DNA of 56,786 nt from a virus (lineage: Duplodnaviria; Caudoviricetes): positions 1-56,786 of IMG/VR virus record IMGVR_UViG_3300010396_000050; one strand, 5' to 3'. Of this stretch, positions 12,969 through 29,051 are shown piece by piece. Numbering within the stretch: the stretch's first letter is position 1; each line of letters begins with the position of its first letter. The translations under genes and the position numbers were made by a program. The notes beneath the pieces were generated by a model that made no database searches, was not told the DNA's origin, and was given only the letters and a program-made list of their open reading frames with translations.

Positions 12969-12977
12969 ATTATACCA
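12969..12977 (-). promoter_or_regulatory. Extended -10 promoter upstream of the HNH gene
   Basis: TGgTATAAT on the minus strand in the intergenic gap. Confidence 0.55.
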
Positions 12978-20523: not shown

Positions 20524-20637
20524 CTGCGAGATATGGAGCGAGACGAGCGGCATCACGTTGCCGTGATGTGGCGGTTTGCGCGCCGCCGTTGGGGTGTGAC
20601 CCCTGGAGCAGGAACTCGAACTCATCAACCCGGCAGA
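20523..20637 (-). ncRNA. Y RNA #3 (three-hairpin, non-tRNA distal domain)
   Basis: 5' GGGUUGAUGAGUUCGAGUU is shared with the neighbours; ends pair; internal hairpins GGGGU/ACCCC, GGCGG/CCGCC and CAUCACG-GCAA-CGUGAUG. Confidence 0.7.
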
Positions 20638-20652
20638 AGAAGTCTCGTGTGA

Positions 20653-20782
20653 CGCTGGATACGGAAGTGAGACGGGGGTTTACGCGCTCTGCCATTGAGC
20701 TACATCCACCGAAGCGGATGACGGGATTCGAACCCGCAACCACGTGCTTAGCAGGCAATAACCCGAACTCGTCAACCCAGCG
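20653..20782 (-). ncRNA. yrlA: Y RNA #2, YrlA-type (tRNA-like domain)
   Basis: CGCUGG/CCAGCG terminal stem; T arm GCGGG-UUCGAAU-CCCGU, closed acceptor CAUCCGC-UUCG-GUGGAUG, then D arm UAGCUCAAUGGCAGAGC; lies downstream of Ro60. Confidence 0.9.
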
Positions 20783-20796
20783 ATTGATTCGCGAGT

Positions 20797-20864
20797 ATGT
20801 CGGATGCGTGTGTGGCACGGGGGGATTTGTGTCAAGCAATAACCCCAAGCCTTCAACCCGACAC
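20797..20864 (-). ncRNA. Y RNA #1 (minimal, ~68 nt)
   Basis: GUCGG/CCGAC terminal stem; 5' GGGUUGAAGGCUUGGGGUUAUUG resembles Y RNA #2; starts a few nt after the Ro60 stop. Confidence 0.65.
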
Positions 20865-20869
20865 GTCCA

Positions 20870-22438
20870 TTATACCTGACCGCTCAGGAAAAGGGCGAGC
20901 GTGCGCGGGACCGACGCGTCCATGCCTACAAGGTCCATCTGGCGCGGGTCGCTCGGATCCGCAATTGAAATCTCGTTCGTGGCCATCGCGAGCACCGCGT
21001 GCCGGAACGCCGGGCGCGTCGCCTGAATCTCCGTGATCCGGTGCAACCCGTAGCGACTTGGCCACGTCTCGCTGTCGGTGATACTCACGACCGCCGAAAC
21101 CTCAGGATCGCTCATCGCCGCCGTGAGCGGCAGCGAACAGTCGGTGCCGCCTCCCTGAATGCGGCCAAGTGCTTGTCGAAGCTCGTCATAGCCCTCACCG
21201 CGAACCTCCAGGTGGTACGCGCGGTTCTCGTACGCCATGAACGTCGCATTCGGAAACTGGTACGCGAACACGAGCGCTAGGGAGGTTTCTGCGTCGACAC
21301 AGGTCAGATGCGTGCCGGATGCGTTGCCGTATGTCATGCTCCCCGATACGTCAAGCGCGATGAGGGGCGTCTGGTCCGGATAGATTTCCAGCCCTGTGAA
21401 CGCCTCCCCGAATCCTTCCGCCAACGCGGTCGAGATGCGACTGTTCGGCGTCCACGTCAACGAACCCTTGATGCCACGCCCGGCATCGTAGACCGAGCGA
21501 GCGAGCAGAAATTCGAACGGATGACAGACTTTCGTCGCCCCGTGAATCTTGCGAACGATGAGGTCTACCGAATGCTCGTCATCCATCCCGAGGGATGATA
21601 GCTTGCCAAGATTGCGCAGGAGCGCGCGACCCGGCATGTCCGGCAGCAAGGCGCGCCAGACGGCTTCGTGCCCGAGGAGTGGCCCCGGTACCATCTCGCG
21701 CGGGAGTCGCGCCGACGTGATCGCTTCTGCCGCTTGCTCCGGGGTGATGTCATCGCGTCGCAGTGCGGAATAGCCGACGAACAACCGGGACGCGTGGCTG
21801 TCGGTGAGCAAATCCGCCTCGAACGTCGTCCGCTTGTCCGGATGAGCGATCCAGTCGAAGATCAACGCATGGTCCGAGGATGGCGCCGTCGGACGTGCAA
21901 GGCGCAGCGCATCCCGGAGGGACCACCCGTCGCGCTGATCGTACTTGACTGCCTGGAGCGCGAGAACGTCCGGTGTGCGCATGGTGAACCATCGACTCAC
22001 GGCACGGCGGAACGTCCGATTGCTCTTGCGATCCGCGAAGCGATACCCAAGCCAGTGCAGCAGGTCAGTCCCGATCCGGCACACCTCCGCGACCGCCTCC
22101 ACCGCCTCCCGCTTGACCGCGAGATCAGCACTGCGCGTGAGTGCCGCGAGGACGTAGATTGCCGGGTCAATGCGGAGCGCGAGATTGCCACGCGAGACCT
22201 CGATCACCATATCGAGCGCCGCCCGTGGTTGCTCGTGAATGACGCGCTGAATGGTCTCGTCAGCCCCCTTTGTCACGTCGTAGCCGGTGGCGTAGAACGT
22301 GCCGGTCGATCCCAGGATTAGGAATCGGCGCAGGTGCGTGAGCGGATCAACGCGATAGACGTCGCCTCCCTCATTGCTGAGGACCGTTCCGTTCGCGCGT
22401 GCATTGGCCTGTCGAAGAAGAATAGCGTTCTGGCTCAT
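20870..22438 (-). CDS. rsr: Ro60/Rsr ribonucleoprotein (TROVE + vWA)
   Basis: LRRFLILGS, KYDQRDGWSLRDALRLARP, ALLRNLGKL, MIDAS ALDVSGSM, GGTDCSLP, ITDSETW. Confidence 0.95.
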   Translation of the reverse strand: MSQNAILLRQANARANGTVLSNEGGDVYRVDPLTHLRRFLILGSTGTFYATGYDVTKGADETIQRVIHEQPRAALDMVIEVSRGNLALRIDPAIYVLAALTRSADLAVKREAVEAVAEVCRIGTDLLHWLGYRFADRKSNRTFRRAVSRWFTMRTPDVLALQAVKYDQRDGWSLRDALRLARPTAPSSDHALIFDWIAHPDKRTTFEADLLTDSHASRLFVGYSALRRDDITPEQAAEAITSARLPREMVPGPLLGHEAVWRALLPDMPGRALLRNLGKLSSLGMDDEHSVDLIVRKIHGATKVCHPFEFLLARSVYDAGRGIKGSLTWTPNSRISTALAEGFGEAFTGLEIYPDQTPLIALDVSGSMTYGNASGTHLTCVDAETSLALVFAYQFPNATFMAYENRAYHLEVRGEGYDELRQALGRIQGGGTDCSLPLTAAMSDPEVSAVVSITDSETWPSRYGLHRITEIQATRPAFRHAVLAMATNEISIADPSDPRQMDLVGMDASVPRTLALFLSGQV

Positions 22439-22500: not shown

Positions 22501-22821
22501 TCACGCCGCCTCCCCTTCCTGCCGCATGCCGCGACGCTTGAGCGCAAACCTGCCAAGGTCCGTCATCGCGTAATACCGCACCGTGATCGTCTTGCCGTCG
22601 TAGGACGGTGTGGAGATCGAGCGGTGGACCTCGATCATGCCGGTATCCCGCAGTCGCCAGAGGGCGTGCTGGACGGTCGGAATGTCGAGCGTGAGGCCGA
22701 ACAGCAGATCGTGCTCCGCGTGCGCCTGGTAGATGCTGAACGCCGTCGCCTCGCCAAGGGAGTTGATCGTGGCGAGGACGATGACGGCGATGTCGTCCGG
22801 GTGTCCGATGTCGGCGATCAT
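22501..22821 (-). CDS. Possible winged-helix protein
   Basis: IPTVQHALWRLRDTGMIEV...VRYYAMTDLGR is PadR-like. Confidence 0.55.
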   Translation of the reverse strand: MIADIGHPDDIAVIVLATINSLGEATAFSIYQAHAEHDLLFGLTLDIPTVQHALWRLRDTGMIEVHRSISTPSYDGKTITVRYYAMTDLGRFALKRRGMRQEGEAA

Positions 22822-23180
22822 TTCAGACGCACCCCATTACGGCGAGCATGAAGCATGATGGCGGAAAACGACGCGAACTCAGCGAAGATCATCGTTCGTT
22901 TCGCCTGCCAATTGGACTCGGTTCGCTCGTTGATTCGCTCCTCGACCTGTCCGTCCGGGAGCACGATGACGGTGACAAGGGCATCCGGCGGAACTGACCC
23001 CAAAGAGGCTGATCCAAGCACCATCCATGTCCCATCATGATCTGGCGTTGCAACGCTGCCGAAATATGGGTAAGTGGAGACGATCTGAGCCATGGCGTCA
23101 TACGACTCAATGGACACATCCTTCCTCACGATAAGGAATGCCCAATCATCGTGGCGCGAAATCACGTAGTCTTCGCTCAT
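22818..23180 (-). CDS. Hypothetical protein
   Basis: Coupled ORF. Confidence 0.55.
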   Translation of the reverse strand: MSEDYVISRHDDWAFLIVRKDVSIESYDAMAQIVSTYPYFGSVATPDHDGTWMVLGSASLGSVPPDALVTVIVLPDGQVEERINERTESNWQAKRTMIFAEFASFSAIMLHARRNGVRLK

Positions 23181-23278
23181 GCCGCTTCGTCCTCCCACGT
23201 CTCGGCGATTGCATCCGCCAGCCAGTCGAGCCAGTCCGGATCGTCGGAGGGCTTGGGCGGGGCGTGCTCGTCAGTCAT
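23177..23278 (-). CDS. Small acidic peptide (33 aa)
   Basis: MTDEHAPPKPSDDPDWLDWLADAIAETWEDEAA; AAGGAG SD; coupled. Confidence 0.45.
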   Translation of the reverse strand: MTDEHAPPKPSDDPDWLDWLADAIAETWEDEAA

Positions 23279-23501
23279 CGACGTACTCCTTCAGGACGAT
23301 CGTTGCGAGGTAGAGGAACTTGTCTCCATCGTGGGCCAGTGATTCGCTGACGATGCAGAACTCTCCTTGCGGATATTCTTTGGCGATCTCACTGAAGCGC
23401 TCGATCTTCTTGTCGTATAGAGCGTTGGCATTTTGCCCCTGCAACATCACTTGGAGAACGATCTGCTTGACGCGCTGGGTGACAGGTTCGGTCCACATCA
23501 C
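23271..23501 (-). CDS. Hypothetical protein
   Basis: Coupled ORF. Confidence 0.5.
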   Translation of the reverse strand: MMWTEPVTQRVKQIVLQVMLQGQNANALYDKKIERFSEIAKEYPQGEFCIVSESLAHDGDKFLYLATIVLKEYVDD

Positions 23502-23839
23502 TGGTCCTCGTGTGGTGGCGGGGCGGCGGGAAGATGATCGCGAATCACGGCGAGGACCGCGGGCAGTTCGACGAATCGCTTGTTCCCGACATGTTCGGCG
23601 CGCATCGCGAACTCACCCTTGAATACTTTCTCCAGCGCGACGATTAGGTCCCGCTGGGCCGCGAGCGCGACGGGCGTTGACATCTCCTCGTACTGGTGAC
23701 GGTCGATTGGTACGAGCTCGTCCCATATATCGTTGTCACGATCAGGCATGGGGTGACGATCCCACCATTCCCAATTCACGCGGTGCATGATCCGTGCGTA
23801 CTTCTCGCGCTGCTCCGGGGTGAGCGTCATGGTCATCAC
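23498..23839 (-). CDS. Hypothetical protein
   Basis: Coupled ORF. Confidence 0.55.
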   Translation of the reverse strand: MMTMTLTPEQREKYARIMHRVNWEWWDRHPMPDRDNDIWDELVPIDRHQYEEMSTPVALAAQRDLIVALEKVFKGEFAMRAEHVGNKRFVELPAVLAVIRDHLPAAPPPHEDQ

Positions 23840-24265
23840 CTACCAGTCCCCTTCCGCATACCGGCGCTCTGATCCTAAGTCATCGCCGATCGGGTTGGGG
23901 AACCCATACTTGACCGCGGTTGCTTTGAAAAGCGGAAGTCCATACAGAGCGTAGTCCTCGAAATCCTCGAGCCCGTCTTCAAGTATCCAGTTCCACATCG
24001 CCACTACGTCATACATCATTCCGGCTGAAAGCCCTCGCTGATTCAGTGCCTTGCTAAAGCCGAACGCAACATCCTTCTTGAGTTGTCCCAGGATGTTTTC
24101 GCGGGTGAACGGGACGCAGCTATGCTTGCCGACGAACTCTTCCTTGAGCGTTGCGCCAATCCGGTGTAGGTCAACCTCGGGAACAAAATCCACGAGCCGT
24201 AAAATATCCCGACCGTCCAACGTCTTCGATGTATAGCCCGCGTAAACCTGCTCGAGTGTCTTCAT
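23840..24265 (-). CDS. Phage hypothetical protein
   Basis: GAGGAG SD; visibly more AT-rich than the flanks. Confidence 0.65.
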   Translation of the reverse strand: MKTLEQVYAGYTSKTLDGRDILRLVDFVPEVDLHRIGATLKEEFVGKHSCVPFTRENILGQLKKDVAFGFSKALNQRGLSAGMMYDVVAMWNWILEDGLEDFEDYALYGLPLFKATAVKYGFPNPIGDDLGSERRYAEGDW

Positions 24266-24320: not shown

Positions 24321-25523
24321 TTAGTCGTCTTTCGCGCGGCTGTCGCCCTTGACCGTGCGGAGCGGTCGGAGCGTGTGCACGATGTCGATCAGGTCTCTCT
24401 GGCGACCGATCACGGTCGCGATGTCCTTGTAAGCCCCAGGTGCCTCGTCAAGCTGGCCCTTCGTGATCGTCGTGAACGTGGCAGCGTCTTCCAGCTCGAT
24501 GTTCACCAGATCGACGTCGAACGTCTTCTTGGCGACATTGCGCCCCATCTTGCGACCGGCACCATGCGAGCACGATGCGTAGCTGTCGAGGTTCCCCTTG
24601 CCATGCACGATGTAGCTCGTCGATCCCATGCTGCCGGGGATGATGCCGATGCTCGACGCTCCGGCATCCGTCGCACCCTTGCGATGCAACACGATGCCGT
24701 GATCCTCCGGCCCATCGAACTCGGCATAGTTGTGCATGCAATCGAACGTATCGATCCGGTCCACCGGAATCCCGATCGCCGCCTCCAATGCGCGGACCAA
24801 TTGTTCGATCATCCACATCCGGCTCTCACGTGCGAACGCCATCCCCCAGTTCATGTCATGCATGTAGTCATGGGCGGCCTGTTCATCGAAGCTCAGTGAG
24901 GCGAGGTCCTTCGCCACTTTGACGCCCCGCTTCTCGGTCTCTGCAACGGCGAGCGTGTGGTAATAGCGCGCGAGCTGGTTTCCGGTCCCACGCGATCCCG
25001 AGTGCACCATGAGCCAGATAGCGTCTTCCTCGTCCACTTGTGCTTCGAGGAAGTGATTGCCGCCGCCAAGGGTGCCGAGTTGCGCGGGCCCCTTGCGGAG
25101 CATCGTGTCTTGGAGGGCATCCGCGCGGAGCGACATCTCGAAGAGCCAGTGATGCTCCCGCGCCGGATCCGCTGTACGGTGTGCCTCGAATCCGGTCGGG
25201 ATGCGTTCATTCACTTCGCTTGCCCATGCGTCCCAGAAGTGCTGACCCATCCCCGGATCGAAGTCGATGCTCGTGCGAACGGCTTGCATTCCACATCCAA
25301 TGTCAACGCCCACCGCGTTCGGGATGACGACGCCTTCGGTGGGAAAGACGCAGCCGATCGGGACACCGAAGCCGCCGTGTGCGTCGGGCATCAATGCGAC
25401 GTGGTCACTGACTTCTGGGTGGTTCGCGACGTTGATGACTTGTTCGACCGCCATCGCGTCAAGCTCGTAGTCGGGTACCCACATCTTCACAGGGACACGG
25501 GTCTTCGCGCTGAACTCAATCAT
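24321..25523 (-). CDS. rtcB: RtcB RNA 2',3'-cyclic/3'-phosphate-5'-OH ligase
   Basis: MPDAH, VGVDIGCG, GTLGGGNHFLE, HSGSRG, HNY, HRKGAT, IPGSMG, SCSHGAGR, DEAPGAYKDI. Confidence 0.97.
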   Translation of the reverse strand: MIEFSAKTRVPVKMWVPDYELDAMAVEQVINVANHPEVSDHVALMPDAHGGFGVPIGCVFPTEGVVIPNAVGVDIGCGMQAVRTSIDFDPGMGQHFWDAWASEVNERIPTGFEAHRTADPAREHHWLFEMSLRADALQDTMLRKGPAQLGTLGGGNHFLEAQVDEEDAIWLMVHSGSRGTGNQLARYYHTLAVAETEKRGVKVAKDLASLSFDEQAAHDYMHDMNWGMAFARESRMWMIEQLVRALEAAIGIPVDRIDTFDCMHNYAEFDGPEDHGIVLHRKGATDAGASSIGIIPGSMGSTSYIVHGKGNLDSYASCSHGAGRKMGRNVAKKTFDVDLVNIELEDAATFTTITKGQLDEAPGAYKDIATVIGRQRDLIDIVHTLRPLRTVKGDSRAKDD

Positions 25524-25578
25524 TGGTATGTCTCCTTGTGGGCCGCCCGTGTGAGCGGCCCGTGCTGAATACCAGGCG

Positions 25579-25827
25579 TCAGAACGGAAAACCGTCGTGC
25601 GTCGCGGCAATCTCCGTCGTGAAGATCCCCATCCCTGCGAAGACCTGCTCGCGCGCGTCCTCGGCGCCGCATCGTTGGCAGCGGTCCGGCGTGTCCATCT
25701 CGCTCCAGCAGAGGGCTTCGCGACCGCACCGCTCGCAGCGGTAGTCCGCGCACTCCAGCCAGTCCATATCCACGTCGTCCGCGTAGCCCTGCGTGTCGTC
25801 GTCGTCCATCCATGCGTTCATGCTCAT
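25579..25827 (-). CDS. Small acidic Zn-ribbon protein
   Basis: CERC...CQRC. Confidence 0.55.
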   Translation of the reverse strand: MSMNAWMDDDDTQGYADDVDMDWLECADYRCERCGREALCWSEMDTPDRCQRCGAEDAREQVFAGMGIFTTEIAATHDGFPF

Positions 25828-25828
25828 G

Positions 25829-26422
25829 TCAGCTCCATCCCATCTCAACGGCGTGCTCGTAGCCCTTGCGCAGTTGCGTTTCGTCACTCAAGTCCTCGTT
25901 GCGCGTGCTGCACCGATACCTGGTGTGGCCGGGCTGGTAGAAATCGTTCTGGATCAGCCACTCTTCTTCTGCGGGGGTGACGTACGGGTGCTGACCGTGG
26001 CTCGTGCGTTCCGCGATCCGGGCAAGCAACCCGTCCCACGTCATCCGGGTTCCGGGCATATCGCCGTCAACGAACGTCAGGGCGCCTCGCATCGCGTAGA
26101 GCGCCGCCTCGCGGATCGTGGCGTGGTCAGGGACACCGTTGGCGACCATGTGGGTGTCCATGTCGTCTACCTCAAAATGGATCGAGTAGGTGAAGGTCCG
26201 CTCGGTCCCGCGGTACGGGATGGGGTAGCCGTCGAACCGGAAATGCGTCTGAAGCTCGAACGATCCGACCAGCCGTGCCAACTCTGCGAAAACCGCCTCG
26301 GTGTCCCACGTCTCCACCTCCTCCATACGGGATTCCAGCGCGTGCACGCCGTCTGCGTATTGACGGGCGAGGGATGGCTTTCCACTCGCCCGCTTCGTGG
26401 TCGCCGCCTTGCTCACGACCAT
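25829..26422 (-). CDS. Hypothetical protein
   Basis: Long ORF in the operon. Confidence 0.6.
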   Translation of the reverse strand: MVVSKAATTKRASGKPSLARQYADGVHALESRMEEVETWDTEAVFAELARLVGSFELQTHFRFDGYPIPYRGTERTFTYSIHFEVDDMDTHMVANGVPDHATIREAALYAMRGALTFVDGDMPGTRMTWDGLLARIAERTSHGQHPYVTPAEEEWLIQNDFYQPGHTRYRCSTRNEDLSDETQLRKGYEHAVEMGWS

Positions 26423-26703
26423 GCACTCCACGCCAGTCGCTCCCGGTCGTGCGCGTCCTGCGGCTCCCGGATGCCCGCCTTCATTTCCCAGATCATCGGC
26501 GCCCGCTTGGCGGCGGGCTTGGCGACCGGGGCGACCGGCTTCGTGTCGTTGAGACGCGCGACCAGTTCGGCCTCCGCCTCCGTGATCCAGACCCGCATCC
26601 GCTCCTTCGTGACCGGGGTAACGCGCGGGTTGGACAATCCGGCGATGAGGGAAACCCTCGCGGCTCGGATGGCTTCGGTGGACTTCTCGGCGTATCGGTA
26701 CAT
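26413..26703 (-). CDS. Hypothetical protein, first gene of the rtcB/rsr gene string
   Basis: AGGAG SD before MYRYAEK. Confidence 0.6.
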   Translation of the reverse strand: MYRYAEKSTEAIRAARVSLIAGLSNPRVTPVTKERMRVWITEAEAELVARLNDTKPVAPVAKPAAKRAPMIWEMKAGIREPQDAHDRERLAWSAWS

Positions 26704-26788
26704 CGGTGTTCTCCTGCGTGTGGTCCGTCCGGCTGCAACCGGTCGGGACTTCGGTTCGGGTGAAAGCCTTGCGTCTTTCAATACACTT

Positions 26789-26848
26789 ATATTAGCACGC
26801 TTAGTGCGGAGAGTCAATAGTACACGCAGAGTAGTTCACTGCTATAAT
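26789..26848. promoter_or_regulatory. Divergent promoters
   Basis: Minus strand TTGACT-17-TAATAT (26817-26789); plus strand extended -10 TGcTATAAT (26840-26848). Confidence 0.7.
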
Positions 26849-26869
26849 CATGCACAGAGAGGAGGGACG

Positions 26870-27085
26870 GTGAAGACGATCAAGGAACTTCGCGAAGAGC
26901 ACAACGAAACCCAGCTCGAACTAGCCAGGGTGCTCAACGTCACGCCGGTCACGGTGTACAACTGGGAACGTGGGAAGTTTGAGCCGAAGGCATCACAGGT
27001 ACGCGCCATTGCTCGGCACTATGAGGTGTCTATGGATGACATCGCGTTTGAGGTGGAGAGCGCAAAGAACCACCGCCAGGACTGA
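26870..27085 (+). CDS. XRE-family HTH regulator
   Basis: GGAGG SD, GTG start; IKELREEHNETQLELARVLNVTPVTVYNWERGKFEP. Confidence 0.85.
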   Translation: MKTIKELREEHNETQLELARVLNVTPVTVYNWERGKFEPKASQVRAIARHYEVSMDDIAFEVESAKNHRQD

Positions 27086-27148: not shown

Positions 27149-27424
27149 ATGCCTCTTCCAACCACAATCGAAACCGAACGGGATCTTCTCGTGGCTCACC
27201 TCAACGCGGTAGCGGCTGGCACGGAGAGCTTGAACGACTTTTCGTCGTGGTTCTTTATGTCGTCGCGTCCGGAAGAGTTCGACGATGGCGTAGAATTGGT
27301 ATGGGGAGTCGAGTCGATCTTGTATCAGTGGGGAGATTTCCATGACCTTGTGGGCGCCGAAGAAATTGTCACGAGCATTCGGCAGGAACTAGCTGCGCAT
27401 GGATGTAATGACGATCCTCATTAG
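27149..27424 (+). CDS. Small acidic helical protein, paralog of 2858-3160
   Basis: FSSWFF...GVESILYQWGD...EIVTSIRQEL. Confidence 0.7.
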   Translation: MPLPTTIETERDLLVAHLNAVAAGTESLNDFSSWFFMSSRPEEFDDGVELVWGVESILYQWGDFHDLVGAEEIVTSIRQELAAHGCNDDPH

Positions 27425-28025
27425 TATTCCGCTTGCGATCCTCGCCAATGTGGTGTGGGCTGGACTTCTGATCGCGCGGGACCACTGGCAACACGGCAAG
27501 CTCAAGATTCAAGGGCACTGGGCAGAATGGGCCCCTGACTCCAAGGGACGCGAGTTCAGTATTGGGACGATTGAATACCGGTGGCTCAAGCGCCGGATCG
27601 AATTCAACGGAACGAACTACCACAGCAACGGCATGCCATTTTGCCACTGGACCACAACGGCAAGTACGCTCAATCTTCCGGCGGGGAAGCTGTATTACAT
27701 CTTCGATTCGACGAACGTCGGCGCGCTCCAGTCGTCATCGACGGGGTTCGGCGTGCTGAATCTTCGTCGACGGGCAGACAAGACGATCGTCCCTGAGGAC
27801 GGCTATTTCATGTACCGCGACACGCGAGCCTTCTCCGTCAGCCACAGCATGGTCCGTATTGACGAAGTTCCAATGTCTCGGGGAGATAGCGCGGCCGCGA
27901 TCCTGGCTCGTGTCTTTCCGCATGAGTGGGCCGCGTTGAACGGTGACGACGCCATCGAACCCCGAAGCCCGTTCCGCGTTGTGGCGCGCGATGTCCATGC
28001 ACACCCGGAGGATGTTGCGTCATAG
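27399..28025 (+). CDS. Membrane-anchored beta-rich protein
   Basis: One N-terminal TM helix, then IQGHW and a series of beta strands. Confidence 0.65.
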   Translation: MDVMTILISIPLAILANVVWAGLLIARDHWQHGKLKIQGHWAEWAPDSKGREFSIGTIEYRWLKRRIEFNGTNYHSNGMPFCHWTTTASTLNLPAGKLYYIFDSTNVGALQSSSTGFGVLNLRRRADKTIVPEDGYFMYRDTRAFSVSHSMVRIDEVPMSRGDSAAAILARVFPHEWAALNGDDAIEPRSPFRVVARDVHAHPEDVAS

Positions 28026-28090
28026 CACGCATGTTCTGACCGGCAGACCGGCGACGGCGTGCCCCTTGCCGAACAGTATTTCGCACATTC

Positions 28091-28131
28091 GCACGAGAGA
28101 CCGGACGTTGATAGCGTCCGGTCTCTCGTGC
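28091..28131. terminator. Hairpin between convergent transcripts
   Basis: 17-bp perfect stem GCACGAGAGACCGGACG / CGTCCGGTCTCTCGTGC. Confidence 0.75.
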
Positions 28132-28132
28132 A

Positions 28133-28261
28133 GTTGATGGCAACAGGATTCGAACCTGCGGCGATTCGACCATTGGGTATCTGGCCCCCGTCGAAACGCT
28201 AGCCAGTAAGAGACGGGCTCATCCGTCATTCAGCGTTAAACCACTCCGCCAAACCATCAAC
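28133..28261 (-). ncRNA. tRNA-like RNA with hairpin + pseudoknot replacing the anticodon/variable arms
   Basis: Acceptor GUUGAUGG/CCAUCAAC, D arm UGGCGGAGUGGUUUAACGC, T arm GCAGG-UUCGAAU-CCUGU, and a 72-nt non-canonical insert. Confidence 0.75.
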
Positions 28262-28415
28262 CACGTTGCCTGAGAACCCAAGGCCTAGCCGGACTGGATA
28301 CCGGCCCGCCGGGAATGCACCCAACGCCTACAACCACGGGAAAGACGTGGACTTCCGTCTTGGTGGTCTCATGTCTGCCGGCGTAGAGACCAACCGCCGC
28401 GTGCCTCGGGCACGG

Positions 28416-28487
28416 AGCCCCTCACAGGAGTCGAACCTGTACCCGGCTGTTTACAAAACAGCTGCTCTGCCTTCGAGCTAGAGGGGC
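28416..28487 (-). tRNA. tRNA-Thr(UGU), CCA not encoded
   Basis: GCCCCUC/GAGGGGC acceptor, GCUC/GAGC D stem, GCUGU-UUUGUAA-ACAGC anticodon arm, ACAGG-UUCGACU-CCUGU T arm. Confidence 0.92.
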
Positions 28488-28488
28488 A

Positions 28489-28560
28489 AAGCGGACGGCT
28501 TGCCATTCGCCTACATGGCCCAAGGGCCACGCCCGGATTCGAACCGGGAATCTTCCGCCT
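28489..28560 (-). ncRNA. Circularly permuted tRNA mimic B
   Basis: GCGGA, variable loop, T arm CCCGG-UUCGAAU-CCGGG, closed acceptor CGUGGCC-CUUG-GGCCAUG, D arm UAGGCGAAUGGCAAGCC, then UCCGC pairing with the 5' GCGGA. Confidence 0.8.
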
Positions 28561-28626
28561 GACGGCGCCTGACCGATCGGCCATCCCGCTTTCGCCAGAC
28601 CGGGAGTCGAACCCGGCTACTCCGTC
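28561..28626 (-). ncRNA. Circularly permuted tRNA mimic A
   Basis: GACGG, T arm CCGGG-UUCGACU-CCCGG, acceptor UCUGGC-GAAA-GCGGGA, D arm UGGCCGAUCGGUCAGGC, then CCGUC pairing with the 5' GACGG. Confidence 0.75.
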
Positions 28627-28634
28627 CTGTGACG

Positions 28635-28640
28635 ATTATA
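28635..28640 (-). promoter_or_regulatory. -10 box of the ncRNA operon
   Basis: Perfect TATAAT 8 nt upstream of mimic A; no clear -35. Confidence 0.55.
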
Positions 28641-28643
28641 CCG

Positions 28644-29051
28644 CTACGGCGTCGCCACGTCCGGCGTGACGGGTGCTGCCGGCGTCTCTGGCGTCGCCAC
28701 AGGCACGACAGGCGCGACAGGCACCACGACCGGCGTCACGGCCTCCATGCTCGCCTTGGCCTCTTCCAGCAGCTTGACGACGGTCGCAGGAGAGAAGACG
28801 GCGCTCCGCGTGTCCTGCGCCTGGTGCCAGCGCGACCACAGTCCCCACGCGATCAGGGCGACGGGCCACGCGACGTTGACCCACTCGTAGGCGTTGTCGA
28901 GGACGTGCTGCGTGACGGTAAAGCCGAGCGAGGTCGCGACGACGGCCAGCACGTCGATGATCCGGTAAACCTTGGCGATGGTCAGGACGGGCTCATCTGC
29001 GTAGATGGACGACGTGGGCGCAACGACGGCGGGCTTGGGGATAGTGCTCAT
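28644..29051 (-). CDS. Holin-like membrane protein
   Basis: Two hydrophobic segments; downstream of the endolysin. Confidence 0.6.
   Translation of the reverse strand: MSTIPKPAVVAPTSSIYADEPVLTIAKVYRIIDVLAVVATSLGFTVTQHVLDNAYEWVNVAWPVALIAWGLWSRWHQAQDTRSAVFSPATVVKLLEEAKASMEAVTPVVVPVAPVVPVATPETPAAPVTPDVATP

What the first reader, a model, noticed from the sequence alone, without database searches (positions are those of the whole stretch)
28091..28640. Stand-alone ~540-nt non-coding operon built from tRNA-shaped modules
Seen: a TATAAT box, then on the minus strand four T-loop modules (two permuted mimics, a canonical tRNA-Thr, and a tRNA with a pseudoknot insert) plus a structured spacer, closed by a 17-bp hairpin. 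There is no credible ORF. Only one of the four modules can decode; the other three keep the D/T elbow but lack an anticodon loop. Inference: this is an array of tRNA-elbow decoys or one large multi-domain ncRNA, for example titrating host tRNA-sensing or tRNA-cleaving defence proteins. A tRNA scanner would probably report only the Thr tRNA. I know of no described phage element with this architecture.
Basis: partly seen in the sequence, partly recalled or inferred. Interest (0 to 1): 0.9.

Follow-up and report, generated by a model that had tools for sequence, protein, structure and literature searches.

The report
Phage operon of anticodon-less tRNA mimics
A soil phage carries a small non-coding operon with one real threonine tRNA flanked by tRNA-shaped RNAs that cannot decode; these are relatives of bacterial Y RNAs and probably occupy tRNA-binding proteins during infection.

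Summary
On the minus strand of 28091-28642 lie, in order:
- a GGTATAAT box;
- two circularly permuted, anticodon-less tRNA bodies (M1 28626-28561, M2 28558-28491) joined by 2 nt;
- tRNA-Thr(UGU);
- a weakly structured spacer;
- a tRNA-shaped RNA with a 63-nt insert in place of the anticodon arm (M4);
- a 17-bp hairpin.

A covariance model built only from other permuted modules finds M2 (58.9 bits) and M1 (36.3 bits) at exactly these borders.

The same phage encodes a Ro60 (TROVE) ortholog followed by three Y-RNA candidates, and RtcB, 3-7 kb away on the same strand. M1 and M2 are therefore YrlA-type tRNA mimics, a known kind. They lack the Ro60-binding stem and motif, and they form a tail-to-tail twin. 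I found the same twin layout in three unrelated phage contigs.

Contigs from other soil samples keep M1-M2 and M4 but swap the middle part.

Function is inferred. The most likely reading is that stable tRNA-body RNAs titrate tRNA-binding proteins in the conflict over tRNA damage and repair. Direct Ro60 binding is the main rival. I had no true homologue sequences and no RNA data. I rate it a new variant of a known kind, interest 0.6.

The parts
28635..28642 (-). -10-like box GGTATAAT. It would start transcription about 7 nt downstream, at the first base of M1's closing stem (inferred).
   Evidence: This is one of 3 exact copies in the window, and another copy precedes the Y-RNA locus at 20876-20869. 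The consensus promoter scan did not call it.
28561..28626 (-). M1, a circularly permuted tRNA body without an anticodon loop. It has a 5-bp closing stem, a 5-nt variable loop, a T arm, a 6-bp acceptor-like hairpin (one G-G mismatch) with a GAAA loop, and a D arm.
   Evidence: R1 gives 36.3 bits, E 8e-9, full model. Parsed by eye. No Rfam match.
28491..28558 (-). M2, a second permuted tRNA body, joined to M1 by 2 nt (AG, 28560-28559). It has a 5-bp closing stem, a T arm, a 7-bp acceptor-like hairpin with a CUUG loop, and a D arm. An A15-U48 pair is possible.
   Evidence: R1 gives 58.9 bits, E 2e-15. Rfam YrlA gives 22 bits, E 0.047, model positions 23-85 only.
28414..28487 (-). tRNA-Thr, anticodon UGU, the only decoding member. 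It starts 3 nt (UUU) after M2, and no CCA is encoded.
   Evidence: ARAGORN; Rfam tRNA 61.5 bits.
28263..28413 (-). Spacer S, with several possible hairpins. Its 3' half is replaced or diverged in related contigs.
   Evidence: Fold z -1.5. In X3 a joint spans 28261 to 28366 with 107 other letters between, and in X2 the sequence runs on unlike the window beyond 28272.
28133..28261 (-). M4, a tRNA-shaped RNA in normal order. [quoted passage not shown] The anticodon arm is replaced by about 63 nt: a hairpin with a 6-nt loop plus a putative pseudoknot.
   Evidence: Rfam tRNA gives 29.5 bits (cut-off 29) at 28135-28258. Contigs of three other soil runs keep it, with a 5' border at 28261 in two of them (28272 in the third).
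28091..28131 (-). 17-bp hairpin with a 7-nt loop and no U tract. It is the likely end of the unit and faces the end of the convergent ORF 27399-28025.
   Evidence: The consensus terminator scan did not call it because there is no T run.
20870..22438 (-). Ro60 (Rsr) ortholog, 522 aa, on the same strand, 5.65 kb downstream of the locus.
   Evidence: TROVE 80.9 bits and vWA_Ro60 82 bits. It is 31-33% identical to 'Ro-like' proteins of cultured phages.
20540..20876 (-). A GGTATAAT box overlapping the rsr stop codon, then three Y-RNA candidates: Ya about 20868-20790; Yb about 20782-20652, with its tRNA-like core at 20747-20680; Yc about 20631-20545. The three share a 25-nt 5' motif.
   Evidence: Rfam YrlA 38.7 bits, E 4.9e-6. 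R1 gives 65.1 bits, but Yb was a training sequence. Motif copies; folds.
24321..25610 (-). RtcB RNA ligase, between the locus and rsr.
   Evidence: Pfam RtcB 328 bits; phrog_1075, E 3.5e-117.

Best explanation
The locus is a stand-alone non-coding operon of a temperate soil phage.

Shown:
- It encodes a tail-to-tail twin of circularly permuted, anticodon-less tRNA bodies of the YrlA (bacterial Y RNA) kind.
- These are followed by a decoding tRNA-Thr(UGU) and a poorly conserved spacer.
- Last comes a normal-order tRNA-shaped RNA whose anticodon arm is replaced by other structure.
- The twin lacks the stem and motif through which YrlA RNAs are thought to bind Ro60.
- The phage also carries rtcB, rsr (Ro60) and three Y-RNA candidates on the same strand.

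Inferred:
- Transcription starts at the first base of M1.
- RNase P cutting at the 5' end of tRNA-Thr releases a twin of about 140 nt.
- M4 is released as a tRNA-like RNA of about 125 nt.
- These RNAs keep the tRNA elbow and body, so tRNA-recognising proteins bind them. They have no anticodon loop, so they cannot decode or be cut there.
- They therefore act as free 'effector-binding modules', competitors or decoys for proteins that grip the tRNA body. Candidates are host tRNA-cleaving or tRNA-sensing defence proteins, PNPase and tRNA-processing enzymes.
- This would happen in the same conflict over tRNA damage and repair that the phage's RtcB and Ro60 serve.
For: - Module identity: R1, trained without this locus, hits M2 at 58.9 bits and M1 at 36.3 bits, full length. 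There is a weak Rfam YrlA hit on M2. Accepted phage YrlAs also score below Rfam's cut-off: ET08 37.4 and Cashline 42.2 bits.
- M1 and M2 are not tRNA-tRNA junctions: no tRNA is called over them, the promoter-like box lies 8 nt upstream of M1, and only 18 nt separate M1's D arm from M2's T arm.
- No Ro60 site: there is no 5' flank to form a stem. A matrix built from the 25-nt motif shared by Ya, Yb and Yc gives no hit in M1-M2. The spacer copy ranks 14th, and M4 is not in the top 15.
- Context: TROVE plus vWA_Ro60, and RtcB; a YrlA-like RNA behind rsr.
- Conservation: contigs of other soil runs keep 28490-28695 (25 other letters in 206) and 28023-28261 (13 in 239) while replacing the 228 nt between them with 443 nt. 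M4 is kept in three runs.
- Recurrence: twins of the same layout, with 2-3-nt linkers and all closing stems different in sequence, occur free of ARAGORN tRNAs in L131, L012 and L126.
- Independence from Ro60 elsewhere: 7 of 8 module-bearing phage records that are at least 90% complete have no TROVE match.
- Literature: YrlA tRNA-like domains are modified by tRNA enzymes, and a 7-bp acceptor version is cut by RNase P (PMC4201824 section 6; bioRxiv 10.1101/312249 passages).
Against: - No RNA evidence of any kind. The start, ends and processing are all inferred.
- No homologue sequences could be fetched, so no covariation test on this locus was possible. The difference table was cut before this region.
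- Free-energy folding does not give the two cloverleaf-like bodies. The predicted minimum pairs the two T arms with each other, and z-scores of the parts are modest: -2.1 to -2.2 for the twin and -1.3 to -1.8 for M4.
- R1 also scores tRNA-tRNA junctions at 30-50 bits, so M1's 36 bits alone would not be decisive.
- TROVE is much commoner among module-bearing records (5 of 28) than among cultured phages (353 of 50,697 records). In a second phage (G020) the twin again lies about 5 kb upstream of a Ro60 gene on the same strand, with no other YrlA-like hit nearby. This favours a Ro60 link.
- No protein partner is known.
Confidence: 0.45

Rival explanations
1. The twin, M4, or both are true Y RNAs of the phage Ro60. 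They would bind it through a site that differs from the one in Ya, Yb and Yc, and would gate it or tether it to a partner such as PNPase or RtcB. One candidate site is the nicked helix with a 2-nt bulge and a 3' UUU tail formed by the two stacked closing stems. Another is M4's extended terminal helix, which begins with GGUUGAUGG.
For: - The locus is on the same strand as rsr and uses the same GGTATAAT box and the same 17-bp U-less hairpin design as the rsr Y-RNA locus.
- GGTTG[AT]NG occurs at the start of M4 and in the spacer, as in Ya, Yb and Yc: 5 of the 13 window matches lie in the two RNA loci.
- In G020 the twin lies about 5 kb upstream of a Ro60 gene on the same strand, and no other R1 hit at E up to 0.001 lies outside the tRNA array within the 10 kb read.
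- TROVE is found in 5 of 28 module-bearing records, against 353 of 50,697 cultured phage records.
Against: - M1-M2 have no flank that could form a Ro-binding stem.
- The 25-nt motif matrix does not find the locus.
- The short motif count is not above chance for the window: 13 found against 7.1 expected, and 3 of 100 shuffles reach 13.
- The locus lies 5.65 kb from rsr, outside the 4-kb criterion of Chen et al. 2014.
- Twins in L131 and L012 lie in records without TROVE, though those records are only 50% and 41% complete.
- 7 of 8 near-complete module-bearing records lack TROVE.
Confidence: 0.25
2. M1-M2 and M4 are conserved 'bookends' of a tRNA expression cassette. As compact, nuclease-resistant tRNA-like folds at the 5' and 3' ends, they would protect the precursor and guide RNase P, RNase Z or RNase E, while the cargo between them (here tRNA-Thr plus spacer) is exchangeable.
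For: - In X4 a single contig keeps both ends and carries 443 nt in place of the 228 nt between 28261 and 28490.
- In X3 the 104 nt upstream of M4 are replaced by 107 others.
- The conservation borders fall at the module borders, 28261 and 28490.
- M1 starts where transcription is predicted to start, and M4 ends 4 nt before the hairpin.
Against: In L131 and L126 the twins lie inside long tRNA arrays, between two tRNAs, not at an end. Nothing shows that such folds are needed for processing. The closed acceptor stems are poor RNase P substrates according to the passages read.
Confidence: 0.12
3. The modules are decaying remains of tandem tRNA genes. Only tRNA-Thr would be functional, and the rest would be neutral sequence in an accessory region.
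For: - A permuted module arises automatically from the junction of two tandem copies of one tRNA gene. This is the origin discussed in bioRxiv 10.1101/312249.
- The spacer is not better folded than shuffles.
- ACA, the codon read by the tRNA, makes up only 78 of 890 Thr codons in the 32 ORFs I counted, so even the tRNA's role is unclear.
Against: - The anticodon loops are removed cleanly, and the acceptor ends are capped by GAAA and CUUG tetraloops.
- The T loops, G18-G19 and U8 are intact in both modules.
- M4 differs at 5% of positions from its X4 relative, against 15% in a contig lying on the neighbouring endolysin gene. It is not proven that both contigs come from one genome.
- The twin layout with a 2-3-nt linker recurs in three unrelated phage contigs.
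Confidence: 0.08

Closest known systems
YrlA, the tRNA-like bacterial and phage Y RNA (Rfam RF02553; Chen et al. 2014, PMC4201824)
   Same: - Same order of parts: variable region, T arm, closed acceptor-like stem, D arm.
- Same conserved T-loop and D-loop letters.
- The closing helix sits in the position of the anticodon stem.
- It occurs in a genome with a Ro60 ortholog and RtcB, on the same strand.
- Several copies per genome are known.
   Different: - No 5'/3' stem and no GNCGAA-like motif for Ro60.
- Two bodies are joined tail to tail by 2 nt.
- The locus has its own promoter-like box and is co-transcribed with a decoding tRNA.
- It lies 5.65 kb from rsr, where the published criterion is 4 kb.
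- Rfam score is 22 bits (M2) or none (M1) against a cut-off of 69.
Yrn1 of Deinococcus radiodurans, a Y RNA with partial tRNA features (as described in PMC4201824, sections read)
   Same: This comparison concerns M4. It has the normal order with the T arm last. The helix formed by the two ends takes the place of the acceptor stem, and other stem-loops stand where the anticodon arm would be, including a hairpin with a 6-nt loop.
   Different: M4 has a full D arm and scores as a tRNA at Rfam's cut-off. No model of Yrn1 was available, so the likeness is architectural only and untested.
Circularly permuted tRNA genes of red algae and an archaeon (cited in bioRxiv 10.1101/312249)
   Same: The acceptor stem is made as a closed loop, and the 5' and 3' ends meet at the anticodon stem.
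   Different: Those precursors carry an anticodon loop and are processed to real tRNAs through a circular intermediate. M1 and M2 have no sequence that could form an anticodon loop.
Two-piece (permuted) tmRNA
   Same: The T arm and 3' acceptor strand precede the 5' acceptor strand.
   Different: There is no CCA, no processing loop, no tag reading frame and no tmRNA call. ARAGORN finds none, and Rfam tmRNA has no match in the locus at E up to 10.
Phage tRNA arrays and phage tRNAs that replace host tRNAs cut by defence nucleases (recalled; only a search listing was seen)
   Same: A phage-encoded tRNA sits in an accessory operon of a phage that also carries an RNA ligase.
   Different: Three of the four modules cannot decode. 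No link to a particular nuclease is shown.

Membership tests
YrlA (RF02553) | tRNA-like domain in the order V, T arm, closed acceptor-like stem, D arm | tested here: met
   R1 gives M2 58.9 bits and M1 36.3 bits, full length. Rfam YrlA positions 23-85 align to M2.
YrlA (RF02553) | Score at or above Rfam's gathering cut-off (69 bits) | tested here: not met
   M2 scores 22 bits and M1 gives no match. The cut-off also fails accepted phage YrlAs (ET08 37.4, Cashline 42.2) and the rsr-adjacent Yb (38.7).
YrlA (RF02553) | Stem formed by the 5' and 3' ends carrying the GNCGAA(N)G-type motif thought to bind Ro60 | tested here: not met
   M1 starts about 8 nt after the -10 box, and M2 ends 3 nt before tRNA-Thr. 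The matrix of the phage's own 25-nt motif gives no hit in M1-M2. For M4 the result is inconclusive: it has GGUUGAUGG in a terminal helix but no matrix hit.
YrlA (RF02553) | Encoded within 4 kb of the Ro60 gene on the same strand (criterion of Chen et al. 2014) | tested here: not met
   The strand is the same, but 5.65 kb separate 28091 from 22438.
YrlA (RF02553) | Bound and stabilised by Ro60 (Rsr) | not testable with these tools
   This needs immunoprecipitation or a binding assay.
tRNA (RF00005) | Cloverleaf with a 7-nt anticodon loop; called by tRNA finders | tested here: met
   This row concerns the Thr gene only: ARAGORN finds the UGU anticodon, and Rfam gives 61.5 bits.
tRNA (RF00005) | The same, applied to M4 | tested here: inconclusive
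   M4 scores 29.5 bits against a cut-off of 29, through its acceptor, D and T arms only. 63 nt stand in place of 18, there is no 7-nt anticodon loop with U33, and ARAGORN does not call it.
tmRNA (standard or permuted) | tRNA-like domain plus tag reading frame and pseudoknots; called by ARAGORN or Rfam | tested here: not met
   ARAGORN makes no call. There is no Rfam tmRNA match in 27950-28750 at E up to 10.
Twin of stemless permuted tRNA bodies (provisional class defined here) | Two R1-type modules, each with its own 4-5-bp closing stem, joined by 2-3 nt and not overlapping any called tRNA | tested here: met
   The window has linker AG. L131 has AA and L012 has GC. L126, identical to L132 and L148, has a 3-nt linker.

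The most novel reading that the evidence does not exclude
Tail-to-tail twins of anticodon-less, acceptor-capped tRNA bodies are a distinct RNA class that recurs in phages; here I saw them in four unrelated phage lineages. On this reading they work without being tethered to Ro60. They would be uncleavable tRNA-body decoys, or dimeric scaffolds, that neutralise host proteins which recognise tRNAs, such as anticodon nucleases or tRNA-fragment sensors. That would make them an RNA-based counter-defence carried next to swappable tRNA cargo.
Probability: 0.25. Interest if true: 0.8.

Novelty: new variant of a known kind. Interest (0 to 1): 0.6.

Why it matters
Nobody knows what the tRNA-like half of bacterial Y RNAs does. 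Here that half occurs on its own, doubled, under its own promoter-like box, in a phage that also carries Ro60, canonical Y-RNA candidates and RtcB. This gives a natural 'separation of function' construct: the same genome holds the tethered form and the free form.

If the free twin binds a defined protein, that protein is a strong candidate for the long-sought effector of YrlA RNAs. If the protein is a tRNA-cleaving defence enzyme, the twin would be an RNA decoy, a kind of phage counter-defence for which my searches found no description.

The recurrence of the twin in unrelated phage tRNA arrays also means that tRNA scanners overlook a whole class of array members.

Tried and rejected
Homologue hunts that gave nothing usable:
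- blastn of the locus against cultured phages gave no match.
- tblastn of the upstream 157-aa ORF gave no match.
- The search for related loci with Ro60 and with the endolysin in viral contigs gave no relative.
- Ro60 in genome contigs gave one hit at 36% identity, in an alphaproteobacterial MAG, L122.
- A 22-mer of M4 found nothing in viral contigs or metagenome contigs (0 and 0).
- The endolysin in metagenome contigs matched patterns in 93 stretches, none a relative.
- A 19-mer of M4 gave one chance match inside a coding region, L154, with no tRNA and no module there.
- A 21-mer of M2 found nothing.

Because of this, no covariation test on true homologues was possible. Read laying printed only the best-supported differences, which lay in the endolysin gene ('93 more are not shown'), and its cap is one call.

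Sequencing runs: no RNA holder was listed.

Other points:
- T-loop spacing patterns brought in about 150 loci. None is homologous to this locus (blastn gave only T-arm-sized matches). I used them only to study the class.
- The pair counts on alignment A3 look strong: 88.6% of cells paired, and 0 of 500 shuffles reach the observed score. They are not evidence, because I had picked most of those sequences with a script that demanded these helices.
- R1 hits in dense arrays are often tRNA-tRNA junctions. Three of the 22 strict script hits are junctions. Of the first 9 adjacent R1 pairs, 5 are junctions and 2 more have a first hit that overlaps an upstream tRNA. Of 4 further pairs, 3 are junctions.

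Readings I considered and dropped:
- Permuted tmRNA: no call and no tag frame.
- An attP tRNA fragment: the integrase lies 8 kb away.
- A normal-order tRNA using the ORF's 3' end as acceptor strand for M1: only a 16-bit mascRNA-type match at E 3.
- Codon supply as the reason for the tRNA: ACA makes up 8.8% of Thr codons.
- A shared Ro60 motif between the two RNA loci: the matrix test was negative.
- In G020, the two weak tRNA-Sec-type matches near Ro60 look by eye like ordinary tRNA-Cys-like and tRNA-Ser-like genes, not Y RNAs.

Papers: supplementary tables S1 and S2 of Chen et al. 2014 list every phage YrlA and cases with several per locus. The 2020 review by Sim et al. is not held. My statement that twins without a Ro60 stem are not in print rests only on the search listings, and on the passages read.
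Full report
**The window.** It is an IMG/VR virus record of 56,786 bases, about 61% G+C, rated about 61% complete.
- It looks like a temperate tailed phage. It has a large terminase, a major head protein and a primase/helicase, an integrase, a large protein with a C-terminal HTH domain and an amidase endolysin. A 1,780-aa ORF is, by its size alone, probably the tape measure.
- Public runs that hold the locus are soil metagenomes. One of them is probably its source.

**What is at 28091-28642 (minus strand).**
- The stop codon of a 157-aa ORF (28646-28644) is followed at once by GGTATAAT (28642-28635).
- M1 lies at 28626-28561, then two bases (AG), then M2 at 28558-28491.
- Three U follow, then tRNA-Thr(UGU) at 28487-28414.
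- A spacer of about 150 nt follows.
- A tRNA-shaped element, M4, lies at 28258-28135. Its acceptor helix can extend by 3 bp, to 28261 and 28133.
- Four bases later comes a 17-bp hairpin without a U run (28131-28091).
- ARAGORN reports only the Thr tRNA. Rfam at its own cut-offs reports that tRNA (61.5 bits) and M4 (29.5 bits; cut-off 29), with 63 nt where the anticodon arm should be.
- The whole unit folds better than all 100 shuffles (z -4.07). Its parts do so only modestly: twin z -2.1, M4 -1.8, spacer -1.5.
- The three small ORFs that overlap the locus have no PHROG match, and the two of them that my gene-call script listed have low GC3.

**M1 and M2 are permuted tRNA bodies.**
- Each reads: 5-bp closing stem, 5-nt 'variable loop', T arm with a standard T loop, acceptor-like stem closed by a tetraloop (GAAA in M1, CUUG in M2), two bases at the place of U8 and N9, D arm with GG, one base, then the other strand of the closing stem. 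This is a complete tRNA body with the acceptor end capped and the anticodon loop missing.
- Rfam's YrlA model aligns to M2 over its tRNA-like core only (22 bits, E 0.047).
- For an independent test I built covariance model R1 from 17 permuted modules taken from other places: the module behind the Ro60 gene of this window, phage ET08, and 15 modules from 13 IMG/VR loci.
- With filters off, R1's three best matches in the window are its own training sequence Yb (65.1 bits), M2 (58.9 bits, E 2e-15) and M1 (36.3 bits, E 8e-9). Both M1 and M2 match full length, at the borders I had drawn by eye. The next matches are T arms only.
- Caveat: R1, like the models of Chen et al. 2014, also scores the junction of two adjacent tRNA genes at 30-50 bits.
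- That does not apply here. No tRNA is called over M1 or M2. The -10 box lies 8 nt before M1. Only 18 nt lie between M1's D arm and M2's T arm, where a tRNA needs at least 23.

- The window encodes a Ro60 ortholog at 20870-22438 (TROVE 80.9 bits, Ro60 vWA 82 bits) and RtcB at 24321-25610 (328 bits). Both are on the same strand as the locus.
- A second exact GGTATAAT overlaps the rsr stop codon.
- Behind it lie three Y-RNA candidates that share a 25-nt 5' motif.
- The middle one, Yb, holds a YrlA-type core: Rfam 38.7 bits, E 4.9e-6. That is the same range as accepted phage YrlAs: ET08 37.4 and Cashline 42.2 bits, all below Rfam's cut-off of 69.
- The rsr RNA locus also ends in a 17-bp hairpin without a U run.
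- The phage therefore has the rsr, Y RNA and rtcB association known from bacteria (passages), plus the locus under study 5.65 kb upstream of rsr.

**Does the locus carry a Ro60 site?**
- YrlA RNAs are defined by the tRNA-like domain plus a stem made by the two ends that carries a GNCGAA-type motif.
- M1-M2 have no flank that could make such a stem.
- A matrix built from the motif of Ya, Yb and Yc finds nothing in M1-M2. The best copy in the locus, in the spacer, ranks only 14th in the window, and M4 is not among the top 15.
- The short pattern GGTTG[AT]NG does occur at the start of M4 and in the spacer. Its count in the window (13, against 7.1 expected) is reached by 3 of 100 shuffles.
- So a Ro60 site is not shown for the twin and is open for M4.

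**Relatives in other samples.** Homologue searches in the collections failed (see Tried and rejected). Contigs of three other soil runs do lie on the locus:
- X4: one contig of 1,250 nt lies on 28023-28261 (13 other letters, 1 gap) and on 28490-28695 (25 other letters, 2 gaps). It carries 443 letters in place of the 228 between them.
- X3: one contig lies on 28119-28261 (4 other letters) with 27 letters inserted in M4's D loop. By my reading the insert can form a 6-bp hairpin. The same contig also lies on 28366-28439, with 107 letters in place of the 104 between.
- X2: one contig lies on 28135-28272 with 6 other letters, then runs on unlike the window.

The conserved blocks thus end at the module borders (28261, 28490). 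M1-M2 and M4 are kept, while the tRNA and the 3' half of the spacer are exchanged or diverged. For comparison, a contig on the endolysin gene differs at 77 of 501 positions, though it is not proven to come from the same genome. The per-base differences inside the locus were not printed, so I cannot say whether the changes are compensatory.

**The twin layout recurs.** Among IMG/VR loci brought in by T-loop spacing patterns (a biased sample), I found adjacent R1 modules that overlap no ARAGORN tRNA in three places:
- L131: linker AA, between two tRNA-Pro genes; 141 nt in all, the same as here.
- L012: linker GC.
- L126, identical to L132 and L148: 3-nt linker, between tRNA-Val and tRNA-Leu.

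L012 and L126 were not in R1's training set. The eight closing stems of the four twins all differ in sequence and all pair. In G020, the record of L126, the twin lies about 5 kb upstream of a Ro60 gene on the same strand, as in the window. No other R1 match at E up to 0.001 lies outside the tRNA array in the 10 kb read.

**How often do modules go with Ro60?**
- TROVE was found in 0 of 5, 3 of 13, 0 of 1 and 2 of 9 records that hold candidate modules, 5 of 28 in all. One of the 28, L028, later proved to be a tRNA junction.
- Among records rated at least 90% complete it was found in 1 of 8.
- RtcB was found in 0 of 9 records tested.
- Among cultured phages, 353 of 50,697 records have a Ro-like match.
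- Permuted modules are therefore enriched with Ro60 but mostly occur without it. Incomplete records limit both statements.

**Interpretation.**
- Identity is well supported. This is an operon of tRNA-shaped RNAs of the YrlA lineage, with a single decoding member.
- The mechanism is inferred. My leading reading (0.45): the twin and M4 are released by tRNA-processing enzymes as stable RNAs that show the tRNA elbow and body but have no anticodon loop. They would then occupy proteins that grip tRNA bodies, in the conflict over tRNA cleavage and repair that RtcB and Ro60 point to.
- Main rival (0.25): they are Y RNAs of the phage Ro60 with an unrecognised binding site.
- Further rivals: protective or processing bookends for a swappable tRNA cargo (0.12), and decaying tRNA genes (0.08).
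- M2's 7-bp acceptor-like stem predicts RNase P cleavage, by analogy with the Mycobacterium smegmatis YrlA (passage). This is untested.

**Novelty.**
- YrlA RNAs in phages are in print (PMC4201824).
- Across four searches and the passages read I found no description of stemless twins, of their placement in tRNA operons, or of an M4-type partner.
- I could not see the supplementary tables of Chen et al. 2014 or the 2020 review.
- I file it as a new variant of a known kind.

Noticed in passing
window 20540-20876 (-): Three Y-RNA candidates lie behind the Ro60 gene and share a 25-nt 5' motif that begins GGGTTGA. In a whole-window scan the three copies score 39-40 bits and the next best site scores 12.5. 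Only the middle candidate has a tRNA-like core. The unit starts at a GGTATAAT box overlapping the rsr stop codon and ends in a 17-bp hairpin without a U run.
   Followed up: partly
window 22501-24265 (-): Five small ORFs (76-141 aa) lie between rtcB and rsr. None has a Pfam match, apart from one sub-threshold TFIIE_alpha hit. Of the two I scanned against PHROGs (22501-22821 and 22818-23198), neither matched. By position they may be unknown partners of the RtcB-Ro60 module.
   Followed up: partly
window 12969-12976 (-): The third exact copy of GGTATAAT in the window, again on the minus strand, lies inside or between replication-region ORFs. I did not examine it.
   Followed up: no
L136 10440-10580 (-): By my reading of the sequence this is a 'tRNA within a tRNA'. 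A normal-order tRNA-like RNA (acceptor, D arm, T arm) has its anticodon stem capped by a complete permuted module (R1 60.6 bits) instead of an anticodon loop. It is a nested version of the tail-to-tail twin.
   Followed up: partly
L122 3870-3955 (+): In the alphaproteobacterial MAG, R1 finds a permuted module (42.9 bits) 164 nt upstream of its Ro60 gene on the same strand. Rfam found nothing there at E up to 0.01. It is probably an unannotated YrlA.
   Followed up: partly
window 28242-28243, in run X3: A relative carries a 27-nt insertion in the D loop of M4 that can form a 6-bp hairpin. This is unlike a working tRNA, but it is what one expects of a peripheral expansion in a structured RNA.
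   Followed up: partly
L155 2898-2969 (-) and 4229-4310 (-): ARAGORN misses two tRNA-like genes near the Ro60 gene of record G020, and Rfam flags them only as weak tRNA-Sec matches. By eye they look like a tRNA-Cys(GCA)-like gene and a tRNA-Ser(GGA)-like gene.
   Followed up: partly
window 25793-27085 (+): A 430-aa protein has an HTH_3 domain only in its last 70 residues. The 350-residue N-terminal part matches no family. It is transcribed divergently from rtcB and may regulate the module.
   Followed up: no
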